A stretch of 64,000 bases of DNA from Candidatus Omnitrophota bacterium (GTDB taxonomy: Bacteria; Omnitrophota; Omnitrophia; Omnitrophales; Aquincolibacteriaceae). Below are positions 445 to 53,200 of this stretch, in pieces. Every line of letters begins with the position of its first letter. The first letter of the stretch is position 1. Made by a program: the position numbers and the translations under genes. The stretch covers positions 12,962-76,961 of the forward strand of contig JAUYMS010000017.1 in the NCBI GenBank assembly GCA_030698625.1, in the 5' to 3' direction. The notes beneath the pieces were generated by a model that made no database searches, was not told the origin of the DNA, and saw nothing but the letters and a program-made list of their open reading frames with translations.

Positions 445-2202
445 TTGAAGACCGGACTTTCTATAACTGGGTTCTGGAAGTTTACTGCTTTCCACACGCT
501 CGTCTTTTTCAGCATGACGACCATTTTGTGGTCCGCGCCCTCGCTCACCGTCAACGACGTCCTCAGGCAGGGCCTCACCAGTGACAACATCGGACTGCCC
601 TCACTCGTTAATCGCATTGAAGTCCCCGAGACAAGCGGCTCCATCCTAAAGCGTTTCGAAGCGAATTCCTCAGGCCCGTCTATCGTTCACATTCAAGATG
701 CCCACACCCATTACGAAGCGCAACAGAATATCCGCCGCATATTGAATCACCTGTCCGAGGAGTATCAAGTTCAGCACATCTTTCTGGAAGGCGCTATGGA
801 TCGCGTTGATCCGGAACTCATGCGCTATTTCAAAGACACAGAAGCCAACCGTGACATCGCTGAGCTTTTGGCAAAAGAAGGCGTTCTTGGCGGTGCCGAG
901 CTTTTCTTGCTGCAGGCGACAGAGAATGCACAGCAATTAAAAACACAAGCACACGGCGTCGAAGACCCCGATCTTTACAGGAGAAATATCGCGCTGTATC
1001 AAACTGTTTATGCCGACAAGGAAATAGCCGACAACTATTTGACATCGGTGAAAGCCCAGATAGTGACGCGAGCATCCCACGTTTTCGGCAAAAAATTGCG
1101 AAACTTCTTTCGCGAATGGCTTTTTTATCAAGACATCCCCAACGAACTGTTAAGGCAGCTGAACACACTGCGCAAGTATGCTGCCGAAGAACTCGGAGTG
1201 GAGCTAGGCGATGCGCGAGAGCAGATAGACTGGCCCCAGCTCGTGAGATTCTTTAGGCTGCAGCAACTGGAAACAGAAATTGATTTCGAGAAAGCCGGTA
1301 CGGACAAAGGAAGACTTATTGCGTGGATTCGCGAGCAGGAAATAGGTGAGAACTTTGCGGAAGAGTTGAGCGCATGGGACATCAAAAAATCATTTCTCGG
1401 CCGCCAACATGCTGATCTCAGAACTTTCTTAGAGGCGTTACATCAATCTTCGAGGGAGCGGAATTTCAGTTTTGAAACCTACGGAGAGTTGAAGCTGGTG
1501 TTAGGAGCAGCCATCTTGAGGAGTGAGATTAGTGCTACGGAGCTTTTTGATGAAAGCGAGCGCCTCACAGCCCGCATGCTGGGGCGGTTGGCCGCCACCC
1601 CCGAAGAAGAGGCGCTTGTTTCTATATATAAGGATTACGTTCTCTCGGAAAAGCTCTTTTCGCTGGAGCTTGTTTCGGAAGACCATAATGAGCTTGAATC
1701 CAGATTCCGCACCCTGAAACCCTCGCAGCTTATCGCCCGAATCGACGGCGAATACGCAAAATCCTTCGAGAGCAGAGAATTAACGGAGCTGGACGGCTTA
1801 TTCGAGCAGGCACGGGATTTTTATCGTGTTGCCGTAGAGCGAGAAGAGGCCATTTTTGAAAATATGACCCGGCGAATGAAAGAACAGGGCATCGAAAGCG
1901 CCGTGCTGATTACCGGAGGGTTCCATGCGACGGGCTTGCACAGGCTTTTTGAAGAACGGGGTTTTTCCTATGCAAATGTTGTCCCGCATATGCTTGAAGT
2001 TGGCGACAGCAAAAGCTATACGGATCTTTTGATGTTACGGGGGGACTCCCTCACGCGGCGCGCTTACCTAAGCGCGCCGCGCCTCCCTGACATCTCCTTT
2101 CAGCACCAGCTGCCCGAGCACTTCGAAAGTTACCTGGTCTATCACGTGCTTCCGGCTCTTTCCCGGGAGCTTCTGAAGCGTCTCAGCTTAGGGCACGATC
2201 TG
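445..2202 (+). other. Shared N-terminal module of the giant-protein family (copy 1); function unknown
   Basis: Hydrophobic N-terminus MKTGLSITGFWKFTAFHTLVFFSMTTILWSAPS. Blocks conserved across all three copies: IVHIQDAHT (about 682-708), GGAELFLL, WPQLVRFFRL (about 1231-1260), ITGGFHATGL (about 1902-1937). Ends at the first RSELR (2203-2217). Confidence 0.6.
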
Positions 2203-5200
2203 CGCAGTGAGCTTCGAAGTCTAAATCAACAGGCAGCTCTCCTTGATCGTGGCGTCTTGGTTGACGAGGTCACCGGTGAAGTTTCTATTGCCGGTGAGTC
2301 ACTCGGGTTACTGTTCACGGATCGCGGATTGAAAAAGGCGCTGACCGCAACCGCCAATTCAGACGCGGTGAATATCGGGCTTTACGGTAAATGGTTAGCG
2401 GTTCACAGCGCGGCAGGAGAACGCTATACGCTGCAAAAATACAGCGCAGCTCGCGGCGAAGTGATAACCACCAACGCTGTCTATCTGAATAAAGGCGGAA
2501 ATGTCGACCGGGCCCTTTATTCGCCCAACCGAAGAGTTAAGCCGAGCGACGGTAATCGATATGTCGCACGCCAGGTCATCATCTCAGAGTTTGCTAAGGC
2601 GCGGGGGCTTTCCTTTGTGCCGCAGATCATAGATGTCAAGCCTGCCGACTCGACGGTCAGTGAAAACGGACTCATTCAGTTCGAGGATCGGAGTGCCGCC
2701 GAAGACTCACGCGATAAGGTCCTGTATGTGCGCAAGAACGCAGCCGGAATTCCCGCAGACGAGCAGATCGGAAAGTTGAATCCCGCCGAGCGGAGCCTGA
2801 TCTTGCTCGACGTGTTTCGTGCAGTCAAAAAGCTCTTTGACAGCGGTCTTGCGATCGAGGATCTAAAGTTCGACAATTTCCTGATTCGGAAGGATTATTT
2901 GGAAATTCTAAATCACAGAAAGGAGCAGCCGCTGGAGGAACCGGAAACTCTGAGTGTCATTCTTCATGACTTGGGAGGGGCGCTATTTGTTGACCCCGAT
3001 AGCCTGGTGCAATGGCTCGAAACGGAGCGTGCGGGCGGCGCTAAACATCCGCTGGCTGATTTGGTCGACGGGGGAAGGCGTTACAGTCTGGATGGGCGAG
3101 ACAACGGCACCATGCACGCAATTCATAAAAACCAGCAAACGAGTTTTCTGCAAGACGCCGGAAATCTAGTTCGCTTTGAAAGCAGGCTTGATAAAGCCTG
3201 GGCAGGAAACGCTTCGCGAAAGGCGCTTCTTGGTTATTTGGTCATTCATCAACTTGCGAAAACCGCGATCAGCTGGATGACCAAAAGCGTTGATCCGAAA
3301 GAATATTCGCGCCGTGCCTTCGCCGGGATGAGCCATCACGCATGGACTTTTAACAACATCATGCAGGACATCGAGGCTTTAACGCAGCCCGATGCATTCA
3401 GGGCGTTAGAATCCGACGATGTGCTTCAAGAGCGAATGAGCGAGACGGGTCCGCTGAGCAATGAATCTCGTCGGGAGCTCCAAGAGCGTCTTATTGAGCA
3501 GCAATTCGCGGCGCTCTACCAAAATTTAACCTGGATTCATTTGCTCATTCGTCAGGCGCGCCAGGAGACCACCGAGACGAAGACGGACTCGGGCGAAGTG
3601 GCAAGCAGTACGTTCGATACGCTCGATGCGTCCATCGAATCTACCGTGACTCCCGGCGGCGCAGGAATAACGGATGTCATGGAAGCCAAGGCCGAGCGCC
3701 CGACGTTGCCGCGCACAGAAGTGATGGATGCGCGCAGTCCCGTACGCTCTGAGCTGCGCATGGACCCGTTTGATAAGGAAAGCCTGACGGCAGAGGAAAT
3801 GGGCGCGCGCTTAAATGAAAAGGCCAGGGGTAATTCCATCGTCGCAAAGTTCAAGGATACGCTCTTAAGTGTCCAAAGAGATCTGCCATTGGGGCAGATG
3901 CTCAAAGAGATGGAGCAGCAAGTCATTCTGGAAATAGGATCGGGTGAGGATATGCAGCTGATCAACTTCTGGGTACGCGACTTGAAGTTCGATCCCGCGA
4001 AAATCTATGCCATTGAGCCTGCGCTAACCACAGGTTCGAATAACCCGCTTGGTCGAGAAAACTTTGCCGCAGGGCTTTTCCGAGAAGACTTGCCGGAATC
4101 ATGGAAATCGATCCGCTTTGATTGGATATTTGCGTACCACGTGGCCGAAGCATTGCATTCGGGTAAGCCCCTGGACGGTATTAATCATGAGGATTTGCAA
4201 ACGGCTTATGGCCTATTACGAACCGGGGGTCAGCTTACGGTACATCCGCTCGATTTTAATCTCGCTATGGACAAACTGATCCCCGAGTTTGGAATACCTT
4301 CCGGAATTCCACTACCCGCTGAAAGATCCGCTGTGGCAAAGTTTCTGGAAAGTGTGAATTTTGAATACCCATACCGTCCGCTGCTACATGGCGGCTTTAC
4401 TTTCGCCAAGGGTGTCCGTTCCGAGCTCCGCTACGAAGTTAGTGATTTGGTGGGAGGCGAGGCGAATCTCGAGTATCTGCGAAACATTGAAGCGGCGGTC
4501 AATCAGGATATGGAAGCGCCTGCTTACGCGCGACTTGCGATCTATCTTGCTTCGGGTGCGGACATTTCGACCGCGCTTCTTGCGACCGATGCGGACGAAT
4601 ACCTCTTTGTAGAGAGAAGACCCTTTATCAATCCCAACTGGACGTGGGATGAATCAACCGAAAAGCACCTGAATCGCTATGTGGAGGGTAAACAATTTTC
4701 CGATTACGGAATGACAGATGACATGGCAGCTGCGGGAGAGACGCGGAGTTATTTGCGCGGGGAATTAGAGGTTCTCGGGGCCGCAAATATTATCGTGCCT
4801 GGCGCAACCCGTGAGGACGGTATCTACGAGATCTTTTTCACCTGGCAGGGTAGAGAGAGGAAGATTACCTATGTCAGCGCGGAGTCAGAAGCGGAAAGAC
4901 GCGTACAAATCGCCCATGTGATGAAAGGGCGTAAAGGCGCAGATTATCTGATCGTGAAAGCCGGTGACTATGGAGCGAATGTGGGAGGCGTAACCACCAC
5001 GGAATTGAATGGCGTGATCAGCCGTTTCGTTGGGGGCGGGGGGCACCTGATTCTCGATTTTCCGCATCGCCGTAACGACACCGAACCTGTGTCCGTGAAA
5101 CAACCATTATCTGCGAAGTTCGGCTACGGTAAGGCAATGCTGATGCAGGACAGGGCTTTTGTTTACCGGATCGTTCTTTCACGGTCTCACCTACCGGATC

Positions 5201-8200
5201 TGAGCGGGGCGATGAGAACGGCAAGAGAGTGGTTGTGGCTGGCAGCACCATATGGCTTGGTCGGCAGCGGACACCGCATGGGCGGACCCGCGCGCTCCGA
5301 ACTGCGTGAAGGCGGGGAGCAGCTTGAAGATCTACAGATTGTACAAATGGTCAGGATGGATCGTGCGCTTACGAGACTGACCTCAGAGGACACAGAGTAC
5401 GGCAATGAATTGGGGATTACCCCTACCCAGGAAGGGGTAGGGTCTACTTACGTCGAAGGAGAAGTGCGTAGGTTCCTCGAATTTGCGGGCCAAAGTGATT
5501 TACGCGATCAATTGAGTTTCGATCCTTCGCTTGAGGGCGCCCGGGTTCATGTTTTTGGATTCGGAATGCAGGGCTATGAGATTCTGGCCTTTCTCCAGGA
5601 ACTGGGTGCCGGGCGTATCGATGCGGTCAGCGCGTTACCTTCAGACTTTCGCGGGCTTGACCGAACGTTGAAGGATAACGGTCTCCAAGACGCCCATGTC
5701 GACGGATATCTTTGGCAGGGGCAAAACTTGATTTCGGAACTCGCAGAACCTGAAAGTCAAGCCGATATTGTTTTTCTGGCGGATGTCGTGGATGAAAGAC
5801 ACTTCACCCCGGAAGAAATCAGAGCTATTGCCGAAAATCTCATCCGCTATGTTAAACCCGGAGGCCTGCTAATCTCGGCAGGGCAGGTTTACCGGCTTCA
5901 CGAGCTGGGTGCCATACATCCCGAAGACCCTATCGTCAGAATCGAGCACCCCGTTGAAACCCCTGAAGTCGCTTTCTTCTTAAAGGAAAAAACAGATCGC
6001 TCCGAGCTGCGTGCGGATAAAGCGGAGTTGGCGAAGTTAACGGCGGCGTTGGAGCGTGTGTATGCAGCCGTAGCGCTTGATGTTGACGGCACCTTGCTGG
6101 ACGGAACCGGCGACGGGTTCATGAAGAATATCCATCATATCATCGGCTTTCTCCGCGAAGGAGTCCCGGTGGCCATCGTTACCGGAAATAATGAAAGCAT
6201 GGTTAAGGCCATTTTGATTCGCACGATCAAGAATCTCCTCACCTCCGCGAAGGACTACAACATGACAGATGCCGATGCTGCCGCCGCTATGGAGAACCTT
6301 CATATCTATGTCTACAACGGGGCCAAGGGGTTCAATGCCGGAACAGGGGAAGTCTACTACAACAGGTTTTTTGACGAACTGACGGGGCACAGCACGCGCC
6401 ACTTCATCGAGGCAATCTCGAGGGACCCGGGTCTCAGAGATATTGCAGAAAACTCTATGGTTCAGGATGCGCGAGCCTATGGATTTCATTTCTTTCCTTA
6501 CGGCCAGACGCCAGACCTGGATGGATATGCCGACAGACTGAACAAATTTTTTGAGCGCGAGGGTTACCCGCTTGAGGCAAAGACGTCTTCGGTCGGTGTC
6601 GACGTTTTCCCGAAGGGTGTTGATAAGGGCTATGCGATCGCCGATCTTGCTTTGCGAATTGGTGCTGAGCCGAATCAGATCGCCAAGATCGCTGACCGCA
6701 TGCAAAAGGGCGGCAACGATGACGCGTTTAATGATGAAAGCAGTTTTGCGGTAAAGTCTTATGATGAAGATAATCCGAGGCAGATTTCTATGGTTAAGGC
6801 GGTCGAACTCACCGGGGCGGCAGCTACCGGCTATCTGCTGGAACGCTTGAAAATAAAGGGCCGCGCCGACCGATCGGAGCTGCGGACCGAAGACGTGCAG
6901 ATTCTGGATGTCGTCTTCGATCCTGAAACGGGGGCCTATGTTTCGCGGGCGGAACTCGATAGGCGGTCCCGGGAAGAAGCGGGGCGGTCGCGCGAAGCGG
7001 CGATCATTGCAAAGGCGGCAGAGCCGCGCACACCGCTCCAGACCGCCGGAAAATTGCTGGATGTCGCGGGATTTGCTTTTATGGTTCTCGGGGCTAACCT
7101 CTTTACGGCGGGCATTGTTGCGGCCCTCCTGTTTAATATTACGTCGGTCATCGGGATTGTTCTCGTAACGTTGGGAATCGCAACTCTTGCGGTGGTCGTG
7201 GGCGAAAGCACCTTTGTCGGCCTTCCGTATCTATTCGGACGTTACGATTTTGCGAAGCTGGTCGGAATCAGCAATGAAGAGGCGGTAGATCGCGCCGAAC
7301 AGGCGTTTGTCGATGTTAAAGAAACGGCCTTGACGAAGGAAGACTGGCATGTACTCGGCGGCTTGCGTCATGTCGGGGAACCGCGCGGCTTCTTCCGTAT
7401 TGCCTATGACATCATTGAAGTGGTGGTAGGCAAAGGCGATACGGTCCATCCGGCTATTGCCTTCGGGCCGGTACTGCGTTATCAGACCGTGCGCCGATTA
7501 GGGCTTGGAAACGACTTTGACAGACTAATGCCGCGTTACATCAAGAATCTGTCGGGAGATCAACCGTCATTATTGGCGCGCTCTTTTTGGTGGGTTTACG
7601 GGGATTATGAGCTCTTGAAACGCGCTTATTCGTACGGCTACCTTTCTATCGTTCCTTTCTACGCGCTGCCGCACTTTCTCCTAAGCAGCACGCTCTTTCT
7701 GGCTTTGACTGCGCTCAGAATTCTTTCACTCCCGCTCACACTCAGGGGCGGTATCAAGGCGTTCCTTGAAAGACTGAGCATGATGAAAGCTTATGCTGCA
7801 ATTACCCTGCTTTACCTCTCAACCGCGGCGGAATCTATGACGGATAAAACCGTGACAAACGAATTGCCCGATGCGATTACGGTCGGTAAGATGACGGTTG
7901 AGGGCCGAGCGCGGTCTGAATTAAGAGATGATGTCGAAGAGGCTATAGCGCAATGGGCGGCAGGCAAGGAGGTCGAACTCTTGCAAACAGTCTCTGTCGA
8001 CGGATCCGAATTCCGATTTGTGCACCGAGCACTTCCCGTCATGGATGCGTATCCGGGTATGCGTGAGACCATCGAGGTTTATGCGGGGCAGACCCGTATC
8101 GGCGGCATTGTCTTTCGCGTGAGGAGTTCGGGGGTTTGGCGCGACACGCTGATCGGCGGCCCGCTGACGGGCGTCGATGACGCCCTTGATGTGGAGGCTT

Positions 8201-11200
8201 TATACCGTGAACGTTATGAAGGCATTGGAAGAACACTGCTTGCGCTTGTGGTCCTTTTAACCCACGCGCGCGGGATTCCGAAAATCAAAGCGGCCAAGCA
8301 GTTGAATATGCAGCAGTATGAAGATCTGGGCTTCCACTATTCCCCTTCGGTGGATGAATATGTGGCCGACTTGACCCATTTACGCGACGACGTGCCGGGA
8401 CGGGCCGAAGGTGCGGTAGGTATCGTGAAGCGCTCCGAGCTGCGCGATGATGAAATGAGCGGCCTTGTTACCGTTCCAGAAGATAATCCTTACGAGACAA
8501 CTTATGCGGCTCGGCCCACTTTTAGCCAGGCCTTTCCGGACTCAAGTCAATTGATCAGAGAACTTGATACCGTTTCCGTCGGGTCCTTTATGTGGTCCGC
8601 TGGAGTTATTGAGAACACGGAGCAGAATGAATCCGTGACGATATTTGATAATGCCATCGCACTGGCGTTAAGCCTTGCGGCGATCGGGGTACTGTCCTTT
8701 TTCTGGTTGGGGATCTTGAGTTCGCCATCAGGCGTGGTTCACGAACTATTTAATGGACTGGTCGATGGCTACTTGTTCCGGATCTTGATGTCGCTTGCGA
8801 TCTCGACGATTCCCGTTGCCCTCTTGACGTTTATCACCGGGCTCTATTTTTCGGGAATACGGGTATCTCATAAGAAAGTCTTCGCTCAGATCCGGGACGA
8901 TCTCACAGAGAATCCGCCTGCAGGGAAGCTGAGATTGATCGGCCTGCTCTTGACCGCTTTAACCGACAGGAACCAAAATATTCGCAAAGCCGCTGAGAGC
9001 GAGCTGAACCGAATTACAAAGCAGGTTCCGAGCGTAAGACAGGCCTTAGACGCCGGCGTAGCAGGTATCGCTCGCTCCGAACTTCGCAGTGATGAAATGA
9101 GCACCGATGAGGTGCGCGAGCTTCTGAGCCGTGTCCCGCCACCGACACCGGTCTTTGAACAACGGGGAGGGGTCACAGAGGAAAATCCTTATGGGGTGCT
9201 TCTGGAGATATGGCCGACAGTGGGGCAGGCGTTTCCCGAGCTTTCGCAGTTACTTCGCGATCTGGATAATATTTCGGCGTTAGACCTTGAGTTCGCAATC
9301 GACGCTGTTGCTGAGACGACTAAGGGGAGATATGAAGGAAAAATCCATAATGTTTTTGTGGCGTGGCTCACGCTGCCAATGCTTTATCTGTTTTCTGTTG
9401 TGGGGGTGTTACTTTGGAGCGAAATGAGCACTTTGCCTCGGATAGCGAAAGATGCCGTGCGTGATTTCGTCGTTGACGGGCCTCTGTTGTGGCTTGCAGT
9501 CGCATCGTTTGCGACGGGTCTAATATTGGCGGTGAGAGTATTATTCTTTGCTGCGCCAAAGGGGTCTCATAAAGAAACCGTTTCGGGCATCAAAAAAAAC
9601 TTATATGAAAATCCCCTAGCGGGGAAACTCGAGGCGCTTCGCTTTCTTTGGAGTCACGCTAATCATAGGGATCAGAAGATTCGCGAAAGTGCGGGCAAAG
9701 CGCTCGAATTTGTAGCAAGTAAAGTCCCGAGTGTGAGACAGGCTTTAGATCGTGGCGTGCAGACCCCCACTCGGTCTGAATTAAGGACTGATGAGGAGCA
9801 AGTCTCGATATTCCTGGGGGCGCTCTTGAGATTAGCGGAGTCGGTGAATATTGAGAGACGCGACTCGCTTTCCGTGGCGCGCGTATTGGACGACGGAACG
9901 CGCCTCTATGAGTTACCTCTCGAAGTTTCTTACCTAAAATCGCGTAACATTCAGCCGGGGAATCCGGTTCCGCTCGAAGAGCTGACCCGTTTCTTTACGG
10001 CGCAGGGCATTGAGGATCTTTCAAATATCTCCTTAGGCTACGGTGCCTCGGAGCTGAAAGGTCCGGCACTCCTCGCAGTGGAAGACCGCGGCGGCGACTT
10101 GCAGTTAATCGGTCTGTCGTTTTACCGTTTCAGCAAAGACTCGGATGACTACGGTCTCGGACTCATCAGTTTTGGAAATGCTGACGATCTCATCCGTCAG
10201 TATCAAGGCTCGCTGGATTATCCCGGGAACCGCGCAGCCGGAATTATTACTCCTCAGGTGGAGTTCATTACGGACGGGATTTCCGTCGAAGCAACTTTTC
10301 AAGCTCAGGGAGCCCGACGGGAAGTCCTGATCAAGCGCCTCCGCTCCAAGGCAAAGATTCGTCAGGTAGATCTCCCGCGGCCGTCTCGCCACATGGCCCG
10401 CTCTGAGCTGCGGGCCGCAACGGTTAAAGGTAAAGATCAGGATTTCTTTGGCCGGGGTCTGGTCAAGGACCATTATGACACGGTAAGGCTTTTGGTGCCC
10501 GAACCGCTGATTCGCGATGTCGCCGGAGAAGGCTTCTTGATTCCGGAGCCGCTTCAGAACCCCGATTTGGTTATGGCGAGCACCGGTGCGCGCGAGTCAA
10601 ACCTCACATTTGCTGCTGATAAGGCCTTTTTCTCGGTAATTTTTAAATCAAAAGACGTCCACCGGCCTTTTCTTAAATCCGATTTCATCTATTACGGAAA
10701 AACGCTCGAGATCTTGCCGGGAACGATGCGGCCATTTCGCGAAGATCAGGAACGAACCGACATTGTCGCGGCGGACAGGACGTTTGCATGGTGGTTCCGG
10801 CATAACGTCGTCCCTTTTGCGCAGGCGCTCGGCTATGAAAAGATCGGGATCACGATCGTGAAAGGCCTCTCTAAGCGTATCAGTCAGTCCACGCTCAGGG
10901 AACTTGGCTTCCGTGAGCCCCGGATAGGAGGGCGCGCGATCTGGATTTACGATCTAAAGCCGGAGCAGCAAGCGTCGCGTTCCGAACTGGGCGTCACACC
11001 GGATCCGCTTAAAGCGCTTCGGCGCCCGGCCCTCCGCCAGTTTATCCGTGATCTTTTAGTGAACAACTACAGCAGGTTCCTTCCGGAATTTTTTCAAACG
11101 AAACCGCAGGGCCCGTATGTGGATATCGAAGCCTGGGTAGACGGTATTCTTCAAGCCGGCGCGGACTTCAGCGGGGATCCGGTTGCCGCGGCGAGGTTTT

Positions 11201-20212: not shown

Positions 20213-20775
20213 TTCGTCTTAGAAAGTCGTCGCCGAACCCGCATGGCTGCCAAGCCACCCAGCATGAGAGCCAGAGTGCCGGCCTCAGGGGTTTGAGGGA
20301 TCTTATCGTAATCGATATCCAGACGCGATCGAATAAGCTCAATTTTTTCTGAGTTGAAAGCCGTCTGCTCTGAGAGCCCAACCAGAAAACTCTCGCTGCC
20401 CGACTCTAGCAAAGTTTTAAGTAAACCCACATCCAAAGACCAGGTATCGGTGCGGCCGGCAGCGTCGCTTTCCAGAAGTGTCCCCAGAAGAGTGCCGCTT
20501 GGGGTCGTCGCGATCCAGATTTCCCGCGTTGGGCCCTCGTTAAGATTTCCCTTGTGGGTGAGACTGAGCTCGACCGAATGGATTTTTGCCGCCTGCGGAA
20601 AGGCCGTCAGATCATGGGCGTAGGTGTAATTGATCTGATTTCCGGACAACGTATCAGTCACGACAAGCGGTCCCGAAAAATCTAAGGCATCGAAGAAAGT
20701 TACGGCGTAAGCCGGTGTAGAGGTAGCTAAAGCCACGGCGGCAAGCAGGGCCGCAAGTGTAAGTGTTCGGTTCAT
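20209..20775 (-). CDS. Secreted PEP-CTERM-anchored protein (exosortase substrate)
   Basis: Signal peptide MNRTLTLAALLAAVALATSTPAYA. C-terminal PEP-CTERM-like sorting signal IPQTPEAGTLALMLGGLAAMRVRRRLSKTN. The ATG at 20773-20775 has an AGGAGG SD; the ORF-track start at 20868 is probably too long. Confidence 0.75.
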   Translation of the reverse strand: MNRTLTLAALLAAVALATSTPAYAVTFFDALDFSGPLVVTDTLSGNQINYTYAHDLTAFPQAAKIHSVELSLTHKGNLNEGPTREIWIATTPSGTLLGTLLESDAAGRTDTWSLDVGLLKTLLESGSESFLVGLSEQTAFNSEKIELIRSRLDIDYDKIPQTPEAGTLALMLGGLAAMRVRRRLSKTN

Positions 20776-21985: not shown

Positions 21986-23980
21986 ATGTCTAAAAATACG
22001 TCCATTCTTTATCCCTGGATAAAGTTAATTGCCACAGTGACCGTGTGTCTGTTTACGCTCAACACAGTTGCTTGGTCCGCACCCACAGTCCCACAGGCCA
22101 ATATCACGCTTAGCGCACCGTTCAAGTCTCCCGAAATCAAGGACCTGTCGTTACTCGAACGGTTTACGATTCCGCCTCATCTCGGCAGTATCGAAGCGAT
22201 CCATATTCCGCAAGACATCAGCGAGCGCATGGCTTCGCCGACAATCATTCACATTCAAGACGCCCACACCAGCCTCGAAGCCCAGATCAAGATGAAGGAA
22301 TTGATTCACTACCTCCACGAAAAGCACAATTTTGATCTTATCCTGGTGGAAGGAGGCCAGGGTGCGCTAGACGCAGAACGACTCGATTTCTTTGACAACC
22401 CGGCATTAAACCAAAAGGTCGCAACCGATCTCGCCCAGAAAGGGGAAATCGGCGGCGCGGAACTCTATCTTCTAGAGAACCGTGAACAGGGAGCTGAGGT
22501 CGTCGGTGTTGAAGATGACCGGCTGTACTGGGAAAACCTGGCCGCGTTTCGGCGCGTGCTAGCGGGACGCGATAAGTCAGATGATTTTCTCGACAATCTC
22601 AAAACGAGTTTAGGCTCTTTGAGCTCTCTGTACTTCAGCCCCGAGCTGCGCGATTTTACAAGGGATTGGCTGCTCATCCAAGATTCAACCGAAAAGACGA
22701 TTCAACGTTTAGGCGTTTTGAAGAAAGCCGCCCTCGGCCACCTACAGGTCGATCTCGACAATGCCGCCGAACAGAAATCATGGCCGTATTTGGTGCGCTT
22801 TTTTAAAGTGAGAGAGCTTGAGCGCGCGCTGGATTTTAAGCAGGCCGGTATGGAAAAAGGGCATATCGTAGAATGGCTAGCAACGCAGAAACTCGATAGC
22901 TATTGGGCCGAGGGCCTTCAATTGCTCTTTGATGAGGGCAATCAAAACCCGACAGACCCCAACGATGTCCGCAAGAATCCGCGGCCTTTCTTGGAGCGCT
23001 TTTACCAGGCGGTAAAACCGCTCGGTTTTAACTTTGACAAGTACGAAAACTTTGGGCGATACCTCGCTCTTGTAACCCTTGAGCGTGAGATTGATGCCTC
23101 TGCATTCTTTCGGGAAATCCAAAACCTGACAAAGAAAATTACCGTGAGTCTCGCGCACAGCGACGAAGCCGGTCGCCTGGTTGAGTTGCTAGAAGACTAT
23201 CAGCTATGTAAGAAACTGTTTGGCCTGGAACTTACGCGCTCAGAGTTTTCGGCGATCCAGAAATCCCGGGATAAATACCTCCCCCGCGCCATGGCGGACC
23301 GCGCCCTCGCATTTGATAATGGCAGGACAAAGCTGACGTTTAATTCCCTCTCAGACCTCGACGCGCTTTTCCGGTTGGTACTCCGGTTTTACGAAGGGAC
23401 GATGCAGCGCGATATGGCGATGATCGAAAACGCCATGAGCGTCATGAAAAGCAAGAAGTCGAACAAGGCCATACTCGTGACCGGCGGATTTCACAGCGAA
23501 GGGCTTCGCGGACTCTTTGAAGAAAAGGGATTCGCTTACGCGCAAGTGGCTCCGAGAATCTCAGAACTCAATTCGACCGTGAACTATCACGACGTGATGC
23601 AGGGGAAAATCGATGACGTCCTCCTGCAGAACTCACAATTAAAGAGCGCGTTGTATCTAATAGCGCGTAGTAACGTGCGCCCGGAGCGGGCGATTCGAAT
23701 TCTTCGCGCGGCCGGCTTTCGGCCACAGGACCTACTTAACATCCCCGCTGAAAACATCCTCTCCGATCCGAGAACAAGAGCCCTGCCGAATGGAGCGCAA
23801 CGCGACTTAGCGCTTCATTTTCTTAGACTTCAAGTCGCGCTTTATCAGGAACTCAAACAGGCCGAATCCGTAGCCGCGGTGCTCAGTGGACGCACTCAGC
23901 GCACCGCGGACGGATTCGGTTCCGCAGAACCCAGATTTGCCCGTTCCGTAACAGGTGTGGTCACACAGTGGGTGCGCTCA
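21986..23980 (+). other. Shared N-terminal module (copy 2)
   Basis: Hydrophobic leader MSKNTSILYPWIKLIATVTVCLFTLNTVAWSAPT. Conserved blocks IIHIQDAHT (about 22243-22270), GGAELYLL, WPYLVRFFKV, and VTGGFHSEGL (about 23470-23510). Confidence 0.6.
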
Positions 23981-26900
23981 CGCTCGGAACTACGAGCGTC
24001 GTTGGTTGCGACAGAGATGATGCTCTCCGATATTCTGCCTGCGGGTGAGGTCATCGACCGCGTCATTATCGTTGCGGACAATAGCGGCACTCTTACCGAA
24101 CACCGCAAAAAACCCCTGGAGGGAGAGATGCTCAATGCGCTGCGTGCATTTCTGGGCGAGGCAGGCAATGCGCTGCTAGTTAATTCCGGCGATCCGTTCG
24201 CGATGATCACGACCGTGTCTCAGGAGCCTCTTCTTACCTCACTCGACGCGGAATCGGCCTCCCGCATGCGCCTAATTACCGATGGGGGGAAGACAAAACT
24301 CTCAGTAGGCGCGGGCGGTACCATCGAAAACAAAGTAACGGACCCCGATTGGAGCCGCGACGTACAGATCGCGTACACTCGTGCGCTGATTGAAAGTTTT
24401 TATGATGCGGTTAAGAAAAGACACGGACCGCTCAAAGACATGATCGGTGACATAGCGGACAGTACACTGGAGGATTTCAGGGCAGAGTTGCTTGGAAAAC
24501 TTCGGGATGAGGACGAGCTGGGCCGTTGGGGTATACCGTCCAGCGGGGAGCAGGTTTACGAATTCTCCATTGTTACCGATGCCTTACGTGAAAAGATCGG
24601 CGACGTATTTGTTTATGAAGCCGGCTCCAAGGTAACACTCGAGATGGAAAGCGCCCGAGACGCTTATTCTCTGGCGCTCATCCAGGATATTGAAGCGGGT
24701 TTTAGGGCTAGGCACGTCACCGGTGATGGGAGCTTGTACGTTGCGTCGGGAGATTGGTTCGTTGACATTACAGCGACGACGAAGGCTCTAGCCGTTAAGA
24801 AGACATTGGAAGACATCTTCTCAGAAATAGGGCCGGAAGAAAATGTGGTGATATTTATCATAGGCGACGGCGGCAACGATCTCGATACGCTGAATCTGGA
24901 CCTCTCAGGCCGAGCGCACACGGCAGTCATCCCTGTTTTTCTACAGCATGATGAAATTTACGGCGAAGCCTTGCCGGCGCATGCATGGGTCTCGCGGGAG
25001 ACGAAAATGGATGGCGGTCTTGAGGTGGTCCGTTATGCCTTAGGCCTTGTCGGTAAGAAGGTATCCGAGACAGCCGCATTGCCGCTGCTGAAATGGCAGC
25101 GCTCGGAACCGCGCGCTGATGAAGCCACAGAGGCGATTGATCTAAAAGATAAAACCGTATTGCTGCTTCCGGGAGGCGGCTCCCTTGTTGAGAAGATGGG
25201 CAAAGTCCTCTACGAGGAAGACGAGACTTACCGCAAGGTCATGGACGATGCCGCCAAGATCCTGGGGTATAACCTGGCCGAAAAGATTTTTACGCTTTCC
25301 GAAAAAGAGCTCGAGAACCCGATCTATGATGAACCCGCCATTGTATTGACGCTGTATGCGCTTTATGCGTCGGTTGAAGCAGCACTCGGTTATCCGCCAG
25401 AGGAAGGCGCCATTTACGGTCTCTCACGCGGTGCGATTACGGCCGCGATGATTGCCGGCTCACTTTCATTTGAAGATGGGGTGCGTCTTGCACAGCGGTA
25501 CGGCGAGGCTTTGAGCAAGACGCCTGCGGGTGCCATGATTCAGGTCATGGGGTTGCCCGGTGAAACCGTCGAAGGCATTGCCGCGGATCTCGACCTTGAT
25601 ATCGGTGTAGATCTTGGGGAAACACCGGCCATGGGGCACGTCCTGACGATCTCCGGACCGGCTGAGGTCATTAAGGAGGCGGCCCGCCGCGTTGAAGCAG
25701 CGAAAACGGTTGAACACCCGCATGTTCAGGTTGTCCAACTCGCCAATGGGGGTGTGGCCAGTCACAGCCGTGTCATTCAAGAGGCTGTGGATGATATCGA
25801 AAACTTCATTAAGACGCTCGAGGTGCGGAAGCCCTATGTGCCGCTCGTCAGCAATATTGACGGCAGTTTCCTTACGACTGCCGCGCAAGTTGAAAACGAG
25901 CTCTCCCAACACCTGGCTAACCGTATCCGCTTTCCGGCAGTACAAGAAACACTCAAAGCCGCCGGTGCCAACCGGTTTATGGAACTCGGGACCCGCCGCA
26001 AGGGTGTGCTGTCACGATTCCTCTATAAGACTGACCCGCGGCCGGAATACGTGGACGCACCGGCCGCAGGCGATGCCACCAACTGGGAACGCTTCGTCGC
26101 GAAATTCAAGACACCGGCGATGCCCGAAAGGCTTGTCACAAAGCTGCGCAGCGTCAACCAAGAAGGTGCGGACAATCTCAAAGTATCAGATGAAAACGAG
26201 GAATACCGCCGGCACTGGATCCGTACGAACCAGCTGATACGTCAGGGGCTTGAGGAAGCAGGCGACGGCGGCACGGTCTTATTGTTCGGGCTTGGGAATG
26301 GTAATGAATTCGCAGAACGTTACAAGCGAGAAGATCCGGACTTTTTAACATTGGCGGATCTTGCGCGCCGCGTCGACCGTATTGTTGTCTTTGAGGCCGA
26401 TCCCGAATCCGCACAGCGAACCATTGCCTCGATTGGGGATCCCGCCCTCGAAGCCAAATTCACACTTGAACTCGGAGACGTTACGCGCTTAGGGGCCGCG
26501 TTTGCGCGAAAGGCCGGAAAAGTCATTCAGACATCCTCGCGCGATGATGTGATTGAAGACCTGACCGAGATGATTTCTCAGATTAGGATTCCGGTTATGG
26601 ACTACAGCGAGTACGAAGCCTCGCTGGTGCTTGCACCGACTGTCCTCTCACAGATATTTCTCCATACGCGCAGGGCTCTCTATGAGATGCTCGACGAACA
26701 ATTCGGTGATTTTGGAGGCGTTAACCTTTCGGGTCCCGAAGACGAAAAGCTGCCGCTCGCTGTTGCCATGTCCATGCTGGAGGGAGACATTCACCTCGCC
26801 TTTCTCCGTTCCCTGCGGAGGGGTGTCACCGACGACGGGCGAGCCGTCATTTCGTGGACGAAAGACCGGGTTCAGGGTGTTACGTCAGAAGACGGAGTGT

Positions 26901-48510: not shown

Positions 48511-50253
48511 GTGCAGAAGGACTATAGTTATTTCCAGAGAGTGGTTGCGCTCGTCACGGCGCTTGTCTTCTTTACGACAAGCGTGGTCGAGTGGAGCTAT
48601 GCCTCTGCGGCCCCTACTCCCGAGACCCATCTTCAATTCATTTCCGAGCTCGGCATCCCTGCCGATATTGCGACTGTCCGCGATAGCTTCGGTGACTTCT
48701 CCGAAAAGGGGGATCATGTCTTCGTCATCGAAGACGCGCATACCAACTATGATGCCCAGACCAATACCAAAGCCCTTTTAGAATACCTGCAGACGAAACT
48801 CAATATTCACCACGCCTATGTTGAGGGCGCAGCAGCACCGCTTGCACCTGAGCGCATCCGCTTTTACGAAGACGAGGCCACCAATGTGCGGCTCGCCGGG
48901 GAATTGGCAAAAAAAGGCGAAGTCACGGGCATTGAACTTTTTCTGCTTGAGCATGGAAATCATTTCCAGGCTAACGGTGTTGAAGACCTCGGCATGTACG
49001 CCGAAAACCTGGCACTTTACCGCCGTGTCCTTGGGGCAAAGGCCGAATCCGTAGAGCTTTTGAAAATCCTGCGATCGCAAACGGAGCGCATCATCAGCCG
49101 TCTTTTTGGCGCCCGGCTGCGCGAGATCGTCAGGCAGTGGATGGCCTTTCGTGAGCAGCGCATGGATCTCGACCAGTGGATACCCGAGCTCGAACGCGCG
49201 GCGCGGGATTTAGTGCATGTTGATTTTGAAGATCCTATGGCACAGCTCAAGTGGCCGCAGCTGGTCCGGCTCTATCGGCTGAAGCAATTGGAGCAGGATA
49301 TTGACACGGAGAAAATGGAGCAGGAACTCATCCGCGTCGAGGTCTTGATGAAAGCCGCCGGTCAGGAAGGGCTTGCGCAGGAATTTAGACAGCTGCTGAC
49401 CGTCGAGGGCGAACCGGAGTTACGCTTACGGCGTGCCATGGAAGATCTTTACCGGCGCATGCAACCCCTGGGATTTTCTTTCAACGCCTACCCCGCGCTC
49501 CGGAATTTTACCGCGGTCACTATTTTCCGCCGAGAGATGAACGCCCTCGAGATGATGACGGAACTGGAACGGCTCGTCGATACTCTCATGGAAACACTTG
49601 CCGTAACGGATGCTGAAAAGGAATTCCTGCCGTTCATCAAACGTCTTTACCTTCTCGAGAACGCCCTCACACTGACGCTTACGCGTGAGCAGTGGGATCA
49701 GCTGGGTGACGAAGTCCGTCCCGAGGCCCTGCTCGACGAATTGTCTCGGCACAGCAGAAACCTGGCCATCGAGGGACTTGATGAAGAATCCTTGAACAAA
49801 CGGTATGCACGCGTCTTTAATCTGACGGAGTCGGTCAAACGTTTCTATGAGACGGCGCGCGCGCGTGAAAGAGTTCTGGTTAAAAACACCCTTGCCGGGA
49901 TGAAAAGCGAGGGGATTAACAACGCAGTCATGATTGCCGGGGGGTTTCACACCGACGGCATTGCCGCGCTTCTTCGCGAGGCCGGAGTGTCGCACCTCGT
50001 CCTCAGCCCGAATATTCGCAATATCAAGGATGATGAGCAGGACTACTACTGCATGATGACGGGGCGCTGTGATACGGCGGTGCCCGTGCTGCATACCGGA
50101 TTAAATAGTGCGGCGATTCATCGCGAATCGGCCGGCCTGCGGGCTTACCGCTATCGACTTAGGCGCATCGTGGAGACCATAGTGGGATTAGGAATCGGCT
50201 CGCTTGAAGACGACCGGGAACGCGTTTTGCGCTCTTTCGGACTCCTGGCCGAC
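48511..50253 (+). other. Shared N-terminal module (copy 3)
   Basis: VFVIEDAHT (48714-48743), GIELFLLEH, WPQLVRLYRL (about 49250), IAGGFHTDGI (about 49927-49965). Ends at RSELR 50254-50268. Confidence 0.6.
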
Positions 50254-53200
50254 CGTTCGGAACTGCGGGATCAACCCGTACCTACCGATGCCGTTGAAGA
50301 CCACCTTATTAAACCTGTCCTGAATCGCCTGCAGGCCTCGCATCCGGATGTGGCCGCGAACCTAAAATTGAATATTACTTTTGAAGGAGAAGCGAATATT
50401 TTTTGGGCAAAAAACATGACGAAGCCGGTTGCGATTTACAGTGAGGTCCTCGATATTGGCCCGAGGACCGCCTCGCTCGCCATTGATAGCCGCCTGAGGA
50501 GTGCTTTTATCGAGGCGAGCAACAGCGGAAATCCTCTCTTTGCAGCTGCAGCTGAGGATGCCCTGCTACTGCTCGTGTTGAGAGAAGCGATCGCCTTAAA
50601 CAGTCCCCACGTATCGGATACCCTCAACTTGCCTGTGGCGATCGCTTTCACTTCCTTTCTCGAACAAAGTATGAGCTTTAAAGAATTGAGCAGCCGGCTG
50701 GCTTTAGAACATGTGTCTGATTGGGAAGATTATTTCAAGCAAGTGATAGGAATTCTGGATGCGGCGGCCCCGGAGTTTCGTCTTGCGACTTTACATCGAT
50801 TGTGGATGGAGCAGGCAGCCGGACATCAGACACTGGGAGACATAGACGAGATCATTAACTTCGTCAGTAAAGAAGGCGGTGTCGACATGGGAAGCGATGT
50901 CGTCACGATGACGGTCTCAGAAGGCCTGGCAAGCGCTTCTGCGAACAGAAGGGCCGTGCTCGAATCGCGTAAAAGAATTCTGCTCAGAGAACTCGCGGCC
51001 ATGCAACAGGGGCCTGCGCGGTTCCGAGGAGTCGGTTCTCTGGTTCCGTGGGACCTTCCGGCCGAGGATGGGTATAACCTGGCCGGGGAACCCCAGGGCC
51101 TGTTTTCTCAGGACGGAAAGTATGTCGCCCTCGGTCTGCGCTATGAGCAAGGAGACTCGGGGCTTTCCGGCGTTAGCGATGGTGATCTGGTCACCGAAGG
51201 GGCGAGCAACGGCATCATGAACCAAGTGGTGCTTTACGGCGTTTTGCATGATGCACAAAGCCATATCGTAGACGATGTGCGGGAGTATCGAACGATTCCG
51301 GCGGAAGCACTAACGCGCTTTGCGGAGATCACCGGTCTTGTTATGTCATCTGACAATCAACTCTTGGTCGTCTCCGGTCCTGCGCGCGACGGGGGTAAGA
51401 CTCTCGTTTCCGTTTTTAATATCAGCGGAAAATTGCAACTCAAAGACGGTCAGGCGGTTGATGGTGAGGTCTACGATGAACTCAGAACTTTGGAATTCGA
51501 TGAGACGCCTGATTTTGTCGAGATCGCCGCCGATAACTATGCTCTCTTTGTCGGCCTCGGTAAAGAGCTCAGACGTTATGAATTTATCATGGACGAAGCC
51601 GAGATCAGCGGTTTGAAGGCACCGGTTATCGGTAAGACGGCAACCTATGAGGTTAAGGCGGCGGCGGAGATCCCCGAGGCCGTTCCGCTTCTCGCGCGGC
51701 TAAAATTCGTCGAGGGGAAGAGCCCGGAGCTTTCACTGCGGCACGACGGGAATGTGGCCGAAGCCATGATTCAAATGCTGAGTAGCATTCCGATTGCTGC
51801 GCTTTCGGACGGCAGTGCCGTGCTTGCTGTTTCTGCGAGCAAGGCGCTCATGATGGGACTTCAAGCAGAAACGGTCGGCTCCTTGGCTGTCGCGGAGGCG
51901 ATTCAGGCCCGGGTCCGGGTCATCGAAACCGAGATCGCGGCAATTGATGCGCCTCAGCGCTCGGAGCTCAGGACGGCGGATTTTGATCCCGAAAAGCACC
52001 CTGCGACGATCGAAATCACCTCCTATTACACCTCCCGCGATCATTTGCGTATGGCCTTGGCCATCGGAAATGCCGAGCTCTACACCCAAGCGCTCGGCGA
52101 GTCTATTCACTTTGCCAAAAAGGCTATGGATTTAATCGATCACCGCGGAGAAGTGCAAACCATTGTCAGTTACCTCAGGACCAAACAGGATGTGCCCTTT
52201 CAGCGCGACACAATCGGCGATACCTTTGAGATCACACGAGTGCAGGAAGACAAATTTTCCCGTGAGGAGCAGGAGATGATCGAAGTCGAAACCCAGAAAT
52301 TTCTCAAGGCCCTTGGGTTCCAAGGCAGTGTCGCCGAGGATCTGGCGCGCGAAATCATGCTTGTGAGTTATCCTTTGAGCCTCGCGAACATGATGCCCCC
52401 TACCATTGAGGGTGCGGAGTTTCAGCCGGAAATGACGCGTGAAATCGGCAAGAGTTTGCATCAATTTGTGTTTGCGGAATCCCTAACTTTGGGCGGCGCC
52501 GTCGTCGTTAACCCCTCCCTTGCCAAAGATATCACCATTCAGATTCTGCAAAAGAACGATCCGATTGCTTTCAAAGGGTCCTTTCTTCATGAGGTCGTCC
52601 ACTTTCTGGCGCTTAAGAATGCGCTTCCCTTCGATGTGAGCCGCGAGCTTGTGACGCAGGCAATCACGACCGCCGTTTTTCTTACGGAGGCGGGCAGCCT
52701 GGAGCCCATTCTTTCGCAGATCCCCGAAGACATGCAGGAGTGGCGAATTCTCTATGAAACCGTCGTGAGTTGGGGCGAGACCGCTGCCGAACAGGGGCAT
52801 CGCATCAAGCGGCCGGAAGAACTCGATTCGATGGTGCGTGATTTTATTGAAACCCGCGTCCCGGAGATCATGAATATGCCTTATGCGAAATACAATGACT
52901 TTGTCGATCGTTTGAGCGGTGTCTATCTGGGCGCTTTTGCCGCCAAGACGAAGGCCCTGGATCCTAAAACGAATCTTTATAAATTCATCGTCGACTACGG
53001 CATTCGCCACCTGCCGCGCGTGAGGAACAATGCGTTTACCCGCAGCCTGACGCAGCGCGACCACGCCTTTATTCAAGAAGTCATGAAAACGCTTTCGGCG
53101 GTTGCACAGGTTACGATTCCCGACGGCCGCATTACTTTCAAAGAGCAGTCGATGAAGGAAACGCAGGAAAGAGGGCTCGGCCGTATGGTCTATGATGCTG

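What the first reader, a model, noticed from the sequence alone, without database searches (positions are those of the whole stretch)
445..2202. Conserved, unassignable N-terminal 'head' module shared by the three giant proteins
About 580-660 aa is conserved across the three paralogues. The invariant blocks are (I/V)xHIQDAHT, GGxEL(F/Y)LL, WP(Q/Y)LVR(F/L)(F/Y)(R/K)(L/V) and (I/V)(T/A)GGFH(A/S/T)xG(L/I). Each copy is preceded by a hydrophobic anchor and ends at the first RSELR (2203, 23981, 50254). The paired His-containing blocks (DAHT ... GGFH), about 400 aa apart, are faintly reminiscent of the TraB/GumN/ChaN-type two-His motifs. I cannot assign the module with confidence. It may be the targeting, secretion or processing head that defines this protein family.
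Basis: partly seen in the sequence, partly recalled or inferred. Interest (0 to 1): 0.65.

Follow-up and report, generated by a model that had tools for sequence, protein, structure and literature searches.

The report
Hydrolase-like head of Omnitrophota giant proteins
The shared N-terminal "head" of the three giant proteins is real, and it is an unannotated, membrane-anchored enzyme-like domain, distantly related to the TIKI/ChaN/erythromycin-esterase hydrolases, that marks thousands of modular giant proteins in the uncultured phylum Omnitrophota and may help cut or release them.

Summary
The head (about aa 1-540) is the only region the three giants share by BLASTP (E 1e-58 to 1e-84).

- **Family size:** it is not private to this genome. 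A profile search finds 9,902 cluster representatives, nearly always at the N-terminus of proteins up to 7,818 aa. At least 559 loci occur in species-representative genomes, almost all Candidatus Omnitrophota.
- **Annotation:** Pfam and NCBIfam do not assign the three window heads.
- **Fold:** four weak but convergent lines place it in the TIKI superfamily. These are repeated sub-threshold ChaN (PF04187) hits, a five-strand core, fold-search hits that are TIKI members (BcR135, HopBA1, ChaN, EreC), and a 99-100% conserved His/Glu/His/Arg set with the canonical 28-residue His-to-Glu spacing. A helical insertion of about 260 aa splits the core.
- **Link to giants:** all four stand-alone heads examined sit directly upstream of giant genes. 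Junction pentapeptides (RSELR here) occur essentially only in head-bearing proteins.
- **Function:** the most likely role is a built-in maturation or release peptidase. This is inferred, not shown. Junction flavour is genome-specific and does not track head phylogeny, which argues for an additional or different reader.

It is a new, very large family of a known superfamily in a new architecture.

The parts
445..540 (+). G1 head, aa 1-32: N-terminal hydrophobic signal-anchor (MKTGLSITGFWKFTAFHTLVFFSMTTILWSAP). It has Lys before the hydrophobic stretch and a conserved F22/W29/P32.
   Evidence: Translation. F22 is 81% and P32 84% conserved over 161 heads. The TTG start is the same as in the NCBI record.
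616..1020 (+). G1 head, aa 58-192: N-terminal half of the TIKI-like alpha/beta core. It holds IxIPE (P61), strand + D85-x-H87, Q93, strand + E115-G116, GGxEL (G150), strand + G171-V-E173, and Y178..N181.
   Evidence: AF2 models with pLDDT 87.2 and 91.5. Conservation 98-99%. Codons: H87 at 703-705, E115 at 787-789, E173 at 961-963.
1021..1791 (+). G1 head, aa 193-449: all-helical insertion of about 260 aa that splits the core. It contains WPQLVR (P264, R268) and conserved R326, E361 and E370.
   Evidence: AF2 secondary structure shows helices only between model residues 131 and 437. Conservation.
1792..2049 (+). G1 head, aa 450-535: C-terminal half of the core. It holds F459-Y460..R466-[ED], strand + G491-G492-F-H494, strand, P514 and Y525.
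   Evidence: R466 is conserved 100% and H494 99%. The Pfam PF04187 partial matches fall here, at profile positions about 158-204. Codons: R466 at 1840-1842, H494 at 1924-1926.
2050..2202 (+). G1 aa 536-586: variable, unconserved linker between the head domain and the first junction.
   Evidence: No conservation in alignments A1/A2. pLDDT is below 50 at the end of the model.
2203..2217 (+). First RSELR junction of G1, the head/cargo boundary.
   Evidence: Synonymous codons vary among the 33 sites, so selection acts on the peptide.
21986..23980 (+). G2 head, aa 1-665: anchor, core with H94/E122/E176/R475/H503, and a longer variable linker.
23981..23995 (+). First RSELR junction of G2.
48511..50253 (+). 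G3 head, aa 1-581, GTG start: anchor and core with H77/E105/E158/R452/H480.
   Evidence: The start agrees with database protein P0017.
50254..50268 (+). First RSELR junction of G3.

Best explanation
The head is an N-terminally membrane-anchored domain of about 500 aa. Its alpha/beta core belongs to the TIKI superfamily (Tiki, TraB/PrgY/GumN, ChaN, erythromycin esterases, RRSP, HopBA1). The core is split by a helical insertion of about 260 aa and keeps a complete catalytic-type residue set: D85-x-H87, E115 exactly 28 residues later, E173, R466 and H494.

It is the defining N-terminal module of a very large, almost Omnitrophota-specific class of modular giant proteins. These are built as head - variable enzyme-like modules - conserved C-terminal cap.

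The most likely mechanism is as follows; it is inferred. The head is a built-in hydrolase, probably an endopeptidase, tethered at the membrane. It acts on its own giant protein, at least at the head/cargo boundary and possibly at the recurrent R-S-E-x-R junctions. That would release the cargo modules, functionally like the protease of a polyprotein.

My estimates by step: real, family-defining domain about 0.97; TIKI-superfamily fold about 0.8; catalytically active hydrolase about 0.65; acts on the giant protein itself about 0.4.
For: **Real and family-defining.**
- The head is the only region shared by the three giants.
- A profile search finds 9,902 representatives at E<=1e-3 and 6,731 at E<=1e-30. 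In 148 of the best 150, the match starts within the first 50 residues of the protein.
- At least 559 loci occur in GTDB species genomes, almost all titled Candidatus Omnitrophota.

**Fold.**
- PF04187 (ChaN, TIKI superfamily) is the only recurrent Pfam hit: 4/18, 4/10 and 12/30 members. The best is E 2.6e-5 at 24.7 bits, against a cut-off of 27.7. The hits always fall on the R-D...GGFH region.
- As a noise control, no NCBIfam family is hit by more than 2/30 members.
- AF2 predicts five strands with each conserved acid or His directly after a strand.
- Foldseek with the core-only model puts BcR135 (E 5.6e-3, probability 0.99), HopBA1 (6.3e-3, 0.96) and BcR135 3b55 (8e-3, 0.80) at ranks 1-3. ChaN (0.66) and EreC (0.66-0.75) are the only other hits with probability above 0.25.
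- These are the structures that PMC6254334 lists as TIKI superfamily. That paper also gives the 2His/2Glu site and His85/Glu113 in Bcr135 and His3902/Glu3930 in RRSP. Both have spacing 28, the same as H87/E115, H94/E122 and H77/E105 here.

**Active enzyme.** H87, E115, E173 and H494 are 99% conserved and R466 100% over 161 heads that are otherwise about 30% identical.

**Link to the giant protein.**
- 4 of 4 stand-alone heads examined lie immediately upstream of giant ORFs, a fusion/fission pattern.
- The first junction always follows the head at about aa 580-670.
- R[SA]ExR is 35-fold enriched in the tails: 508 observed against 14.5 expected.
- The motif is essentially absent from head-less ORFs in about 1.2 Mb of related loci.
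- No conserved accessory gene lies within +/-10 kb.
- Known TIKI members include site-specific endopeptidases: Tiki, and RRSP inside a multi-effector toxin (PMC6254334, PMC6315884).
Against: **Fold evidence is sub-threshold throughout.**
- No Foldseek hit has E<=1e-3, and TM-scores are only 0.3-0.43.
- The full-length model gave nothing significant.
- No Pfam hit passes the gathering score, and the three window heads give no hit at all.
- Profile searches of PDB sequences found nothing.
- hhalign against the E. coli YbaP (TraB) family gave probability below 1%.
- The decisive core model is an engineered deletion of the insertion.

**Evidence against the junction-protease step.**
- Junction flavour is uniform within a genome across heads that are only 25-34% identical. 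It switches (RSExR to RPExR, RSESR or [GA][AS]SLG) independently of head orthology.
- The two heads of the RPExR genome share no parallel substitutions relative to their RSExR orthologues.
- Stand-alone-head systems and distant fused clades have no recurrent junction at all. Junction cleavage therefore cannot be the universal function.

No cleavage has been observed. TIKI members also include esterases and a non-enzymatic haem binder.
Confidence: 0.45

Rival explanations
1. The head is a TIKI-type hydrolase, but its substrate is not the giant protein. It could be a membrane-tethered esterase or peptidase acting on envelope components, signalling peptides (as proposed for TraB/PrgY) or host/prey molecules (as RRSP and HopBA1 act on host targets). 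In this reading the junctions are read by a separate, genome-specific factor.
For: - The catalytic set is conserved.
- TIKI members include macrolide esterases, Ras endopeptidase effectors and pheromone-control proteins (PMC6254334).
- Junction flavour is genome-specific and decoupled from head phylogeny, with no parallel head substitutions.
- Heads also occur with giants that lack junctions.
- The positive-inside rule puts the head outside the cytoplasm.
Against: - It does not explain why the head is always at the N-terminus of, or immediately upstream of, a giant multi-module protein.
- It does not explain why junction motifs are confined to head-bearing ORFs.
- No candidate separate reader is conserved nearby.
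Confidence: 0.27
2. The head is mainly a non-catalytic anchoring, targeting or ligand-binding module, like the haem-binding lipoprotein ChaN. It would bring the nascent giant protein to the membrane or to a secretion route. The conserved His/Glu/Arg would bind a ligand or metal rather than catalyse.
For: - The closest sequence family is ChaN.
- Every head begins with a signal-anchor.
- Published surveys report that 94% of long Omnitrophota proteins carry a signal peptide or TM helices (10.64898/2026.06.07.730766, abstract).
Against: - The full 2His/2Glu-type set plus Arg is kept at 99-100% over heads of about 30% identity. It has the catalytic His-Glu spacing of the enzymatic members (PMC6254334).
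- A simple anchor does not need a conserved 500-aa domain.
Confidence: 0.13
3. The head is not homologous to TIKI proteins. It would be a new alpha/beta-plus-helical fold whose two His motifs resemble TIKI motifs by convergence.
For: - All database similarities are below curated or conventional significance.
- TraB comparisons failed.
- TM-scores are at most 0.43.
Against: - Three independent kinds of evidence point to the same superfamily and to no other: recurrent PF04187 hits at the homologous position, the top fold hits, and motif order with exact His-Glu spacing.
- The NCBIfam control shows no comparable recurrent false hit.
Confidence: 0.12

Closest known systems
TIKI superfamily: Tiki1/2, TraB/PrgY/GumN (PF01963), ChaN/DUF399 (PF04187), erythromycin esterases and BcR135/136, RRSP and PMT C1-C2, HopBA1
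   Same: - A parallel five-strand alpha/beta core.
- Acid-x-His after the first strand, and Glu 28 residues later after the second strand.
- An R-[DE] helix followed by G-G-x-His after the fourth strand.
- Weak ChaN profile hits.
- Best structural hits to BcR135, HopBA1, ChaN and EreC (PMC6254334).
   Different: - It fails every curated profile threshold.
- It carries a conserved helical insertion of about 260 aa, plus extra invariant residues (Q93, E173, Y178, R268, E370).
- It has an N-terminal signal-anchor.
- It is fused to, or encoded next to, multi-kiloresidue modular proteins, an architecture not described for the superfamily.
- Its activity is unknown.
MARTX toxins: giant multi-effector toxins released by a built-in cysteine protease domain
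   Same: It is a giant protein made of unrelated enzyme-like modules, with short processing-type boundaries and (proposed) a built-in processing domain. MARTX toxins even carry a TIKI-fold module, RRSP (PMC6315884, PMC6254334).
   Different: - No RTX repeats or C80 cysteine protease domain were detected in G1.
- In MARTX the TIKI domain is a cargo effector, not the processing enzyme.
- Here the junction is a strict pentapeptide.
- Processing here is hypothetical.
Omnitrophota giant proteins with N-terminal C39 or S8 peptidase domains (West-Roberts et al. 2023, bioRxiv 10.1101/2023.11.21.568195)
   Same: Same phylum. Giant proteins there have an N-terminal signal region next to a putative protease, which the authors propose cuts the giant into smaller products.
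   Different: - The domain is different: TIKI-like, not C39 or S8.
- That paper states that cleavage points are unknown. Here a recurrent junction motif is visible.
- Neither that paper nor Nielsen & Lui 2026 mentions this head or the junctions.
Viral polyproteins with an embedded protease and short conserved cleavage sites
   Same: Unrelated functional modules are separated by one short, strictly conserved peptide with unconserved flanks, and one conserved enzyme-like module sits in every polyprotein.
   Different: This is a cellular organism. The head is membrane-anchored. There is no evidence of cleavage, and the motif flavour does not track the head's phylogeny.

Membership tests
TIKI superfamily (structural/clan level) | Alpha/beta core with five parallel strands flanked by helices (PMC6254334) | tested here: met
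TIKI superfamily (structural/clan level) | 2His/2Glu catalytic-type residues at strand ends, with a His-Glu pair 28 residues apart (Bcr135 H85/E113; RRSP E3900, H3902, E3930, H4030) | tested here: met
   The residues are D85-x-H87, E115 and H494 in G1, H94/E122/H503 in G2, and H77/E105/H480 in G3. Spacing is 28 in all three. H87, E115 and H494 are 99% conserved. Position 85 is D in 122, N in 27 and E in 7 of 161 heads.
TIKI superfamily (structural/clan level) | Hydrolase (peptidase or esterase) activity dependent on the His/Glu residues | not testable with these tools
   This needs biochemistry.
ChaN / DUF399 (Pfam PF04187) | Profile match at or above the Pfam gathering score (27.7 bits) | tested here: not met
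   The best score is 24.7 bits (E 2.6e-5, P0007). Recurrent sub-threshold hits occur in 4/18, 4/10 and 12/30 relatives. The three window heads give no hit.
TraB/PrgY/GumN (Pfam PF01963; TIGR00261) | Profile or profile-profile match to the family | tested here: not met
   There is no PF01963 hit in any scan. TIGR00261 appears at E 0.1 in 1/30. hhalign against E. coli YbaP and its family gave probability below 1%, though that alignment had low diversity, Neff 2.3.
Erythromycin esterase family (PF05139) | Profile match, and structural superposition over the whole enzyme | tested here: inconclusive
   There is no Pfam hit. The structures BcR135 and EreC are among the best fold hits, but with TM-score normalised by target of only 0.17-0.25.
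MARTX-type autoprocessing toxin | RTX repeats and an InsP6-activated C80 cysteine protease domain that cuts between effectors | tested here: not met
   A Pfam scan of the whole of G1 finds only a HAD hydrolase domain. The resemblance is functional analogy only.
Self-processing polyprotein (functional class) | Recurrent short site at module boundaries | tested here: met
   RSELR occurs 13 times in G1 (plus one RSELG), 13 times in G2 (plus one RSEPR) and 6 times in full G3, always between modules. Family-wide, 508 matches are observed against 14.5 expected.
Self-processing polyprotein (functional class) | Actual proteolysis at those sites by the embedded enzyme | not testable with these tools
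   No proteomic or biochemical data were available. The co-evolution test was negative.

The most novel reading that the evidence does not exclude
Head-bearing giants are true bacterial polyproteins. Each would be an 'operon in one polypeptide', bracketed by a TIKI-type maturation peptidase (the head) and a conserved C-terminal cap ending in (A/S)A. After membrane targeting it would be cut at genome-specific junction pentapeptides (RSELR here) into dozens of separate enzymes. This would be a gene-expression strategy used by thousands of protein families across Omnitrophota and so far undescribed in cellular life.
Probability: 0.3. Interest if true: 0.9.

Novelty: new variant of a known kind. 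Interest (0 to 1): 0.75.

Why it matters
Giant genes of Omnitrophota are a current puzzle. The two main surveys could not say whether or where these proteins are cut, and they left most N-terminal regions unannotated.

- **A handle on the family.** This head is sequence-defined, with about 10,000 clusters at 50% identity. It identifies one coherent, phylum-wide class of modular giants.
- **Concrete experiments.** It supplies specific catalytic residues to mutate.
- **Defined boundaries.** Together with the junction pentapeptides, it gives explicit candidate cleavage points. That makes the question 'are bacterial giant proteins polyproteins?' directly testable.
- **Annotation.** It would justify a new family in the TIKI clan and would split thousands of dark giant proteins into analysable modules.

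Tried and rejected
1. **Pfam and NCBIfam on the three window heads.** Nothing meaningful.
2. **HMM profile searches of PDB sequences.** Both the full-head and the core-only profile returned only noise.
3. **Foldseek with the full-length head model.** No significant hit. Coiled-coil proteins matching the helical insertion dominate. This was overcome by modelling the core without the insertion.
5. **TraB test through E. coli YbaP.** I tried a single sequence and a 120-member family alignment. hhalign probability was below 1%, and the family alignment was too shallow to be a fair test.
6. **NCBIfam on core sequences.** No recurrent family. I used this as a noise control.
7. **RSELR as a nucleotide-level signal.** Rejected, because all synonymous codons are used.
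8. **Heads co-evolving with the junction flavour.** There are class-discriminating columns. However, there are no parallel substitutions in the one clean natural experiment, L029/L034.
9. **Conserved accessory gene near head-giants.** None. The neighbours are housekeeping genes.
10. **A single conserved site after the head in distant clades.** None is evident.
11. **Literature.** The RSELR text search gave only unrelated software names. No paper in the held library links Omnitrophota to polyproteins or to TIKI/TraB/ChaN.

Full report
**1. What is in the window**

The window holds three giant + strand ORFs:
- G1, 445-13536, 4363 aa, TTG start.
- G2, 21986-48319, 8777 aa.
- G3, from 48511 (GTG), running off the window end.

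G1 and the complete 5493-aa G3 are identical to MDP3919627.1 and MDP3919639.1. These come from one 80-kb contig of a Candidatus Omnitrophota MAG, so the starts I use are those of the public annotation. The genes between G1 and G2 are ordinary housekeeping genes: an M24 peptidase, a Rieske protein, a split transketolase, gamma-glutamyltranspeptidase, NUDIX, Bax1-I and a MORN-repeat protein.

**2. The observation**

The three N-termini align at 30-35% identity. When the whole proteins are compared by BLASTP at E<=1e-5, the head is the only region that aligns:
- G1-G2: E 9e-84.
- G1-G3: E 3e-58.
- G2-G3: E 2e-58.
- Each alignment covers about 540 residues.

Three small corrections apply:
- The conserved part ends near aa 535-545, and the 50-130 aa before RSELR are variable.
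- G3 departs from two of the 'invariant' blocks (VFVIEDAHT, TGIELFLL).
- The truly invariant residues are best defined family-wide (section 4).

**3. Distribution**

A word-indexed search found only 15 relatives. The exhaustive profile search found 9,902 cluster representatives (50% identity clusters) at E<=1e-3 and 6,731 at E<=1e-30.
- In 148 of the best 150, the match begins within the first 50 residues of the protein.
- The proteins are long: median about 2,100 aa in my set, up to 7,818.
Almost all are titled Candidatus Omnitrophota or Omnitrophica, often with several per genome.

This is one of the large unannotated families of that phylum.

**4. Fold**

Pfam and NCBIfam give nothing for the window copies. 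Four independent weak signals nevertheless agree.

(a) *Profile hits.* PF04187 (ChaN, 'TIKI superfamily') is the only family that recurs when relatives are scanned.
- It hits 4/18, 4/10 and, after removing the insertion, 12/30 members.
- The best is E 2.6e-5 at 24.7 bits, against a cut-off of 27.7.
- The hits always fall on the R-[DE]...GGFH segment.
- In the NCBIfam control, no family recurs in more than 2/30.

(b) *Structure prediction.* AF2 gives a confident model (pLDDT 87.2, pTM 0.81). It has five beta-strands and a purely helical insertion of about 260 residues between strands 3 and 4.

(c) *Fold search.* The full model gives no significant Foldseek hit. A model of the core alone (G1 aa 58-192 + 450-535; pLDDT 91.5, pTM 0.89) does better:
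- Ranks 1-3 are BcR135 2rad_B (E 5.6e-3, probability 0.99), HopBA1 (6.3e-3, 0.96) and BcR135 3b55 (8e-3, 0.80).
- ChaN and EreC are the only other hits with probability of 0.66 or more.
- Everything else scores 0.23 or less.
- PMC6254334 lists exactly these proteins as TIKI-superfamily structures.

(d) *Catalytic residues.* That paper defines the 2His/2Glu site (RRSP E3900, H3902, E3930, H4030; Bcr135 H85/E113).
- The head has D85-x-H87, E115 and H494.
- The His-to-Glu spacing is 28 in all three copies, as in Bcr135 and RRSP.
- Each residue sits directly after a strand.

Over 161 heads that are otherwise about 30% identical, H87, E115, E173 and H494 are 99% conserved and R466 100%.

I put the TIKI-superfamily assignment at about 0.8. 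I treat membership of ChaN or TraB proper as not met.

**5. Link to the giant proteins**

Four of four stand-alone heads (about 505-545 aa) that I could place lie immediately upstream of giant ORFs, with a gap from -11 to +70 nt:
- P0007/L002: giants of 2400 and 5157 aa.
- P0006/L005: ORFs of 467 and 2155 aa.
- L072: a giant of 1673 aa.
- L081: a giant of 2500 aa.

This is a fusion/fission pattern.

In the fused forms, the head is followed at aa 580-670 by the first copy of a pentapeptide that then recurs at every module boundary.
- Here it is RSELR: 13 copies plus one RSELG in G1, 13 plus one RSEPR in G2, and 6 in G3.
- All synonymous codons are used, so the constraint is on the peptide.
- Across 121 tails, R[SA]ExR occurs 508 times against 14.5 expected.
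- Other lineages use [GA][AS]SLG or RPExR in the same positions.
- In about 1.2 Mb of related loci, the motif occurs at 1.6 per 1000 aa in head-bearing ORFs. Head-less ORFs with a visible N-terminus have about 0.08 per 1000 aa, after correcting five head ORFs that my regular expression missed.
- No accessory gene is conserved within 10 kb.

**6. Mechanism**

*Shown:* a conserved, membrane-anchored, catalytically intact-looking TIKI-like domain, obligatorily coupled to giant modular proteins.

*Inferred:* the head is a hydrolase that acts on its own giant. It would act at least at the head/cargo boundary and perhaps at all junctions, releasing modules as in a polyprotein. Precedents are the TIKI endopeptidases (Tiki, RRSP) and the MARTX logic of a giant multi-effector protein cut by a built-in protease (PMC6254334, PMC6315884). 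West-Roberts et al. made the same proposal for C39 and S8 domains in other Omnitrophota giants, while noting that cleavage points were unknown.

**7. Evidence that tempers this**

Junction flavour is a property of the genome, not of the head lineage.
- Heads within one genome are ancient paralogues (25-34% identity), yet they share the flavour. The window is all RSELR, co117_427 is RSESR, co117_27 is RPExR and USST84 is ASLG.
- Their much closer orthologues in other genomes (51-66% identity) use other flavours.
- In the cleanest case (L029 and L034, both RPExR), the two heads share no parallel substitution relative to their RSExR orthologues.
- Systems with stand-alone heads, and distant fused clades, have no recurrent junction at all.

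So junction cleavage cannot be the head's universal role. A shared trans-acting reader is at least as likely for the internal junctions.

Topology is also unresolved. The anchor obeys the positive-inside rule, which would put the head and thousands of residues of cofactor-dependent-looking modules outside the cytoplasm. G3 has no other TM-like segment. Nielsen & Lui reach the same puzzling topology for their multi-enzyme giants.

**8. Novelty**

Neither of the two Omnitrophota giant-gene preprints mentions this head, a TIKI-like domain or junction motifs. The held literature has nothing on Omnitrophota polyproteins.

The head itself is a new, very large and divergent family of a known superfamily, in a new architecture: a helical insertion, a signal-anchor and fusion to giants. 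I therefore rate it 'new variant of a known kind'. The polyprotein reading, if true, would be far more novel.

Noticed in passing
window 2203-2217, 3745, 4417, 5293, 5998, 6871, 7912, 8431, 9073, 9772, 10399, 12007, 12535 (G1); 23981 ... 47435 (G2); 50254, 51958, 55969, 58984, 61228 (G3): RSELR recurs at every module boundary of all three giants, with unconserved flanks, small or acidic residues after it, and free synonymous codon use. Modules are 170-1340 aa long. Two degenerate copies exist: RSELG at 10978 (G1) and RSEPR at 25100 (G2).
   Followed up: yes
window 12550-13533 (G1 C-terminus), 47450-48316 (G2 C-terminus); P0017 C-terminus for G3: The giants also share a C-terminal 'cap'. Of 135 head-bearing proteins of 1000 aa or more, 111 end in Ala (62 in AA, 43 in SA). 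The last 300 aa or so are homologous within subgroups; for example, the G1 cap is 67% identical to that of P0024. There is no Pfam match. G1 ends ...EEISSAA, G2 ...TLAAAA and G3 ...LLTAIAA.
   Followed up: partly
loci L029/L034, L025/L036, L026/L059, and window G1-G3: Junction flavour (RSELR, RSESR, RPExR, [GA][AS]SLG) is uniform within a genome across anciently diverged giants, and it differs between genomes whose heads are close orthologues. This is concerted evolution, which implies a shared reader.
   Followed up: partly
L002:4568-11770 and 12501-; L005:2144-3547 and 3582-10049; L072:11416-16437; L081:11442-18944: Giants encoded downstream of stand-alone heads each have their own N-terminal hydrophobic anchor. 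About 8-12 residues after it comes hydrophobic-[RK]-[PAS]: TTLRP, STLRP, SHFRP, SIFRS, DKLRP, MLKAP. They have no internal junction motif. This could be a single head-recognition site, or chance.
   Followed up: no
window 2218-3744 (G1 module 2): The first cargo module of G1 contains protein-kinase-like strings (DLKFDNFLI ... HDLGG) by eye, but it gives no Pfam hit. Only one Pfam domain (HAD Hydrolase_3, aa 1876-2084) is detected in the whole 4363-aa G1.
   Followed up: partly
window 48511-64000 and beyond: G3 is cut by the window end. The full protein is 5493 aa, is named 'AAA family ATPase' in NCBI, and has no TM-like segment other than the N-terminal anchor. G1 has 7 TM-like segments clustered in aa 2200-3030, and G2 has 3.
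   Followed up: partly
window 20209-20868 (- strand): This 219-aa ORF ends in ...TPEAGTLALMLGGLAAMRVRRRLSKTN. By eye it resembles a PEP-CTERM-type sorting tail (motif, TM helix, basic cluster). It has no Pfam hit.
   Followed up: partly
L021 about 10015-11674 (- strand) and 10 other loci: A long stop-free antisense ORF (up to 553 aa) overlaps the head-coding region in 11 loci and clusters as a 'family'. It is most likely a shadow ORF caused by codon bias. It is not seen in the window copy.
   Followed up: no
window 445-64000: The three giants (4363 + 8777 + 5493 aa, about 56 kb of coding DNA) occupy about 70% of the 80-kb source contig. Ordinary housekeeping genes lie between them, and no secretion or protease genes lie nearby.
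   Followed up: partly
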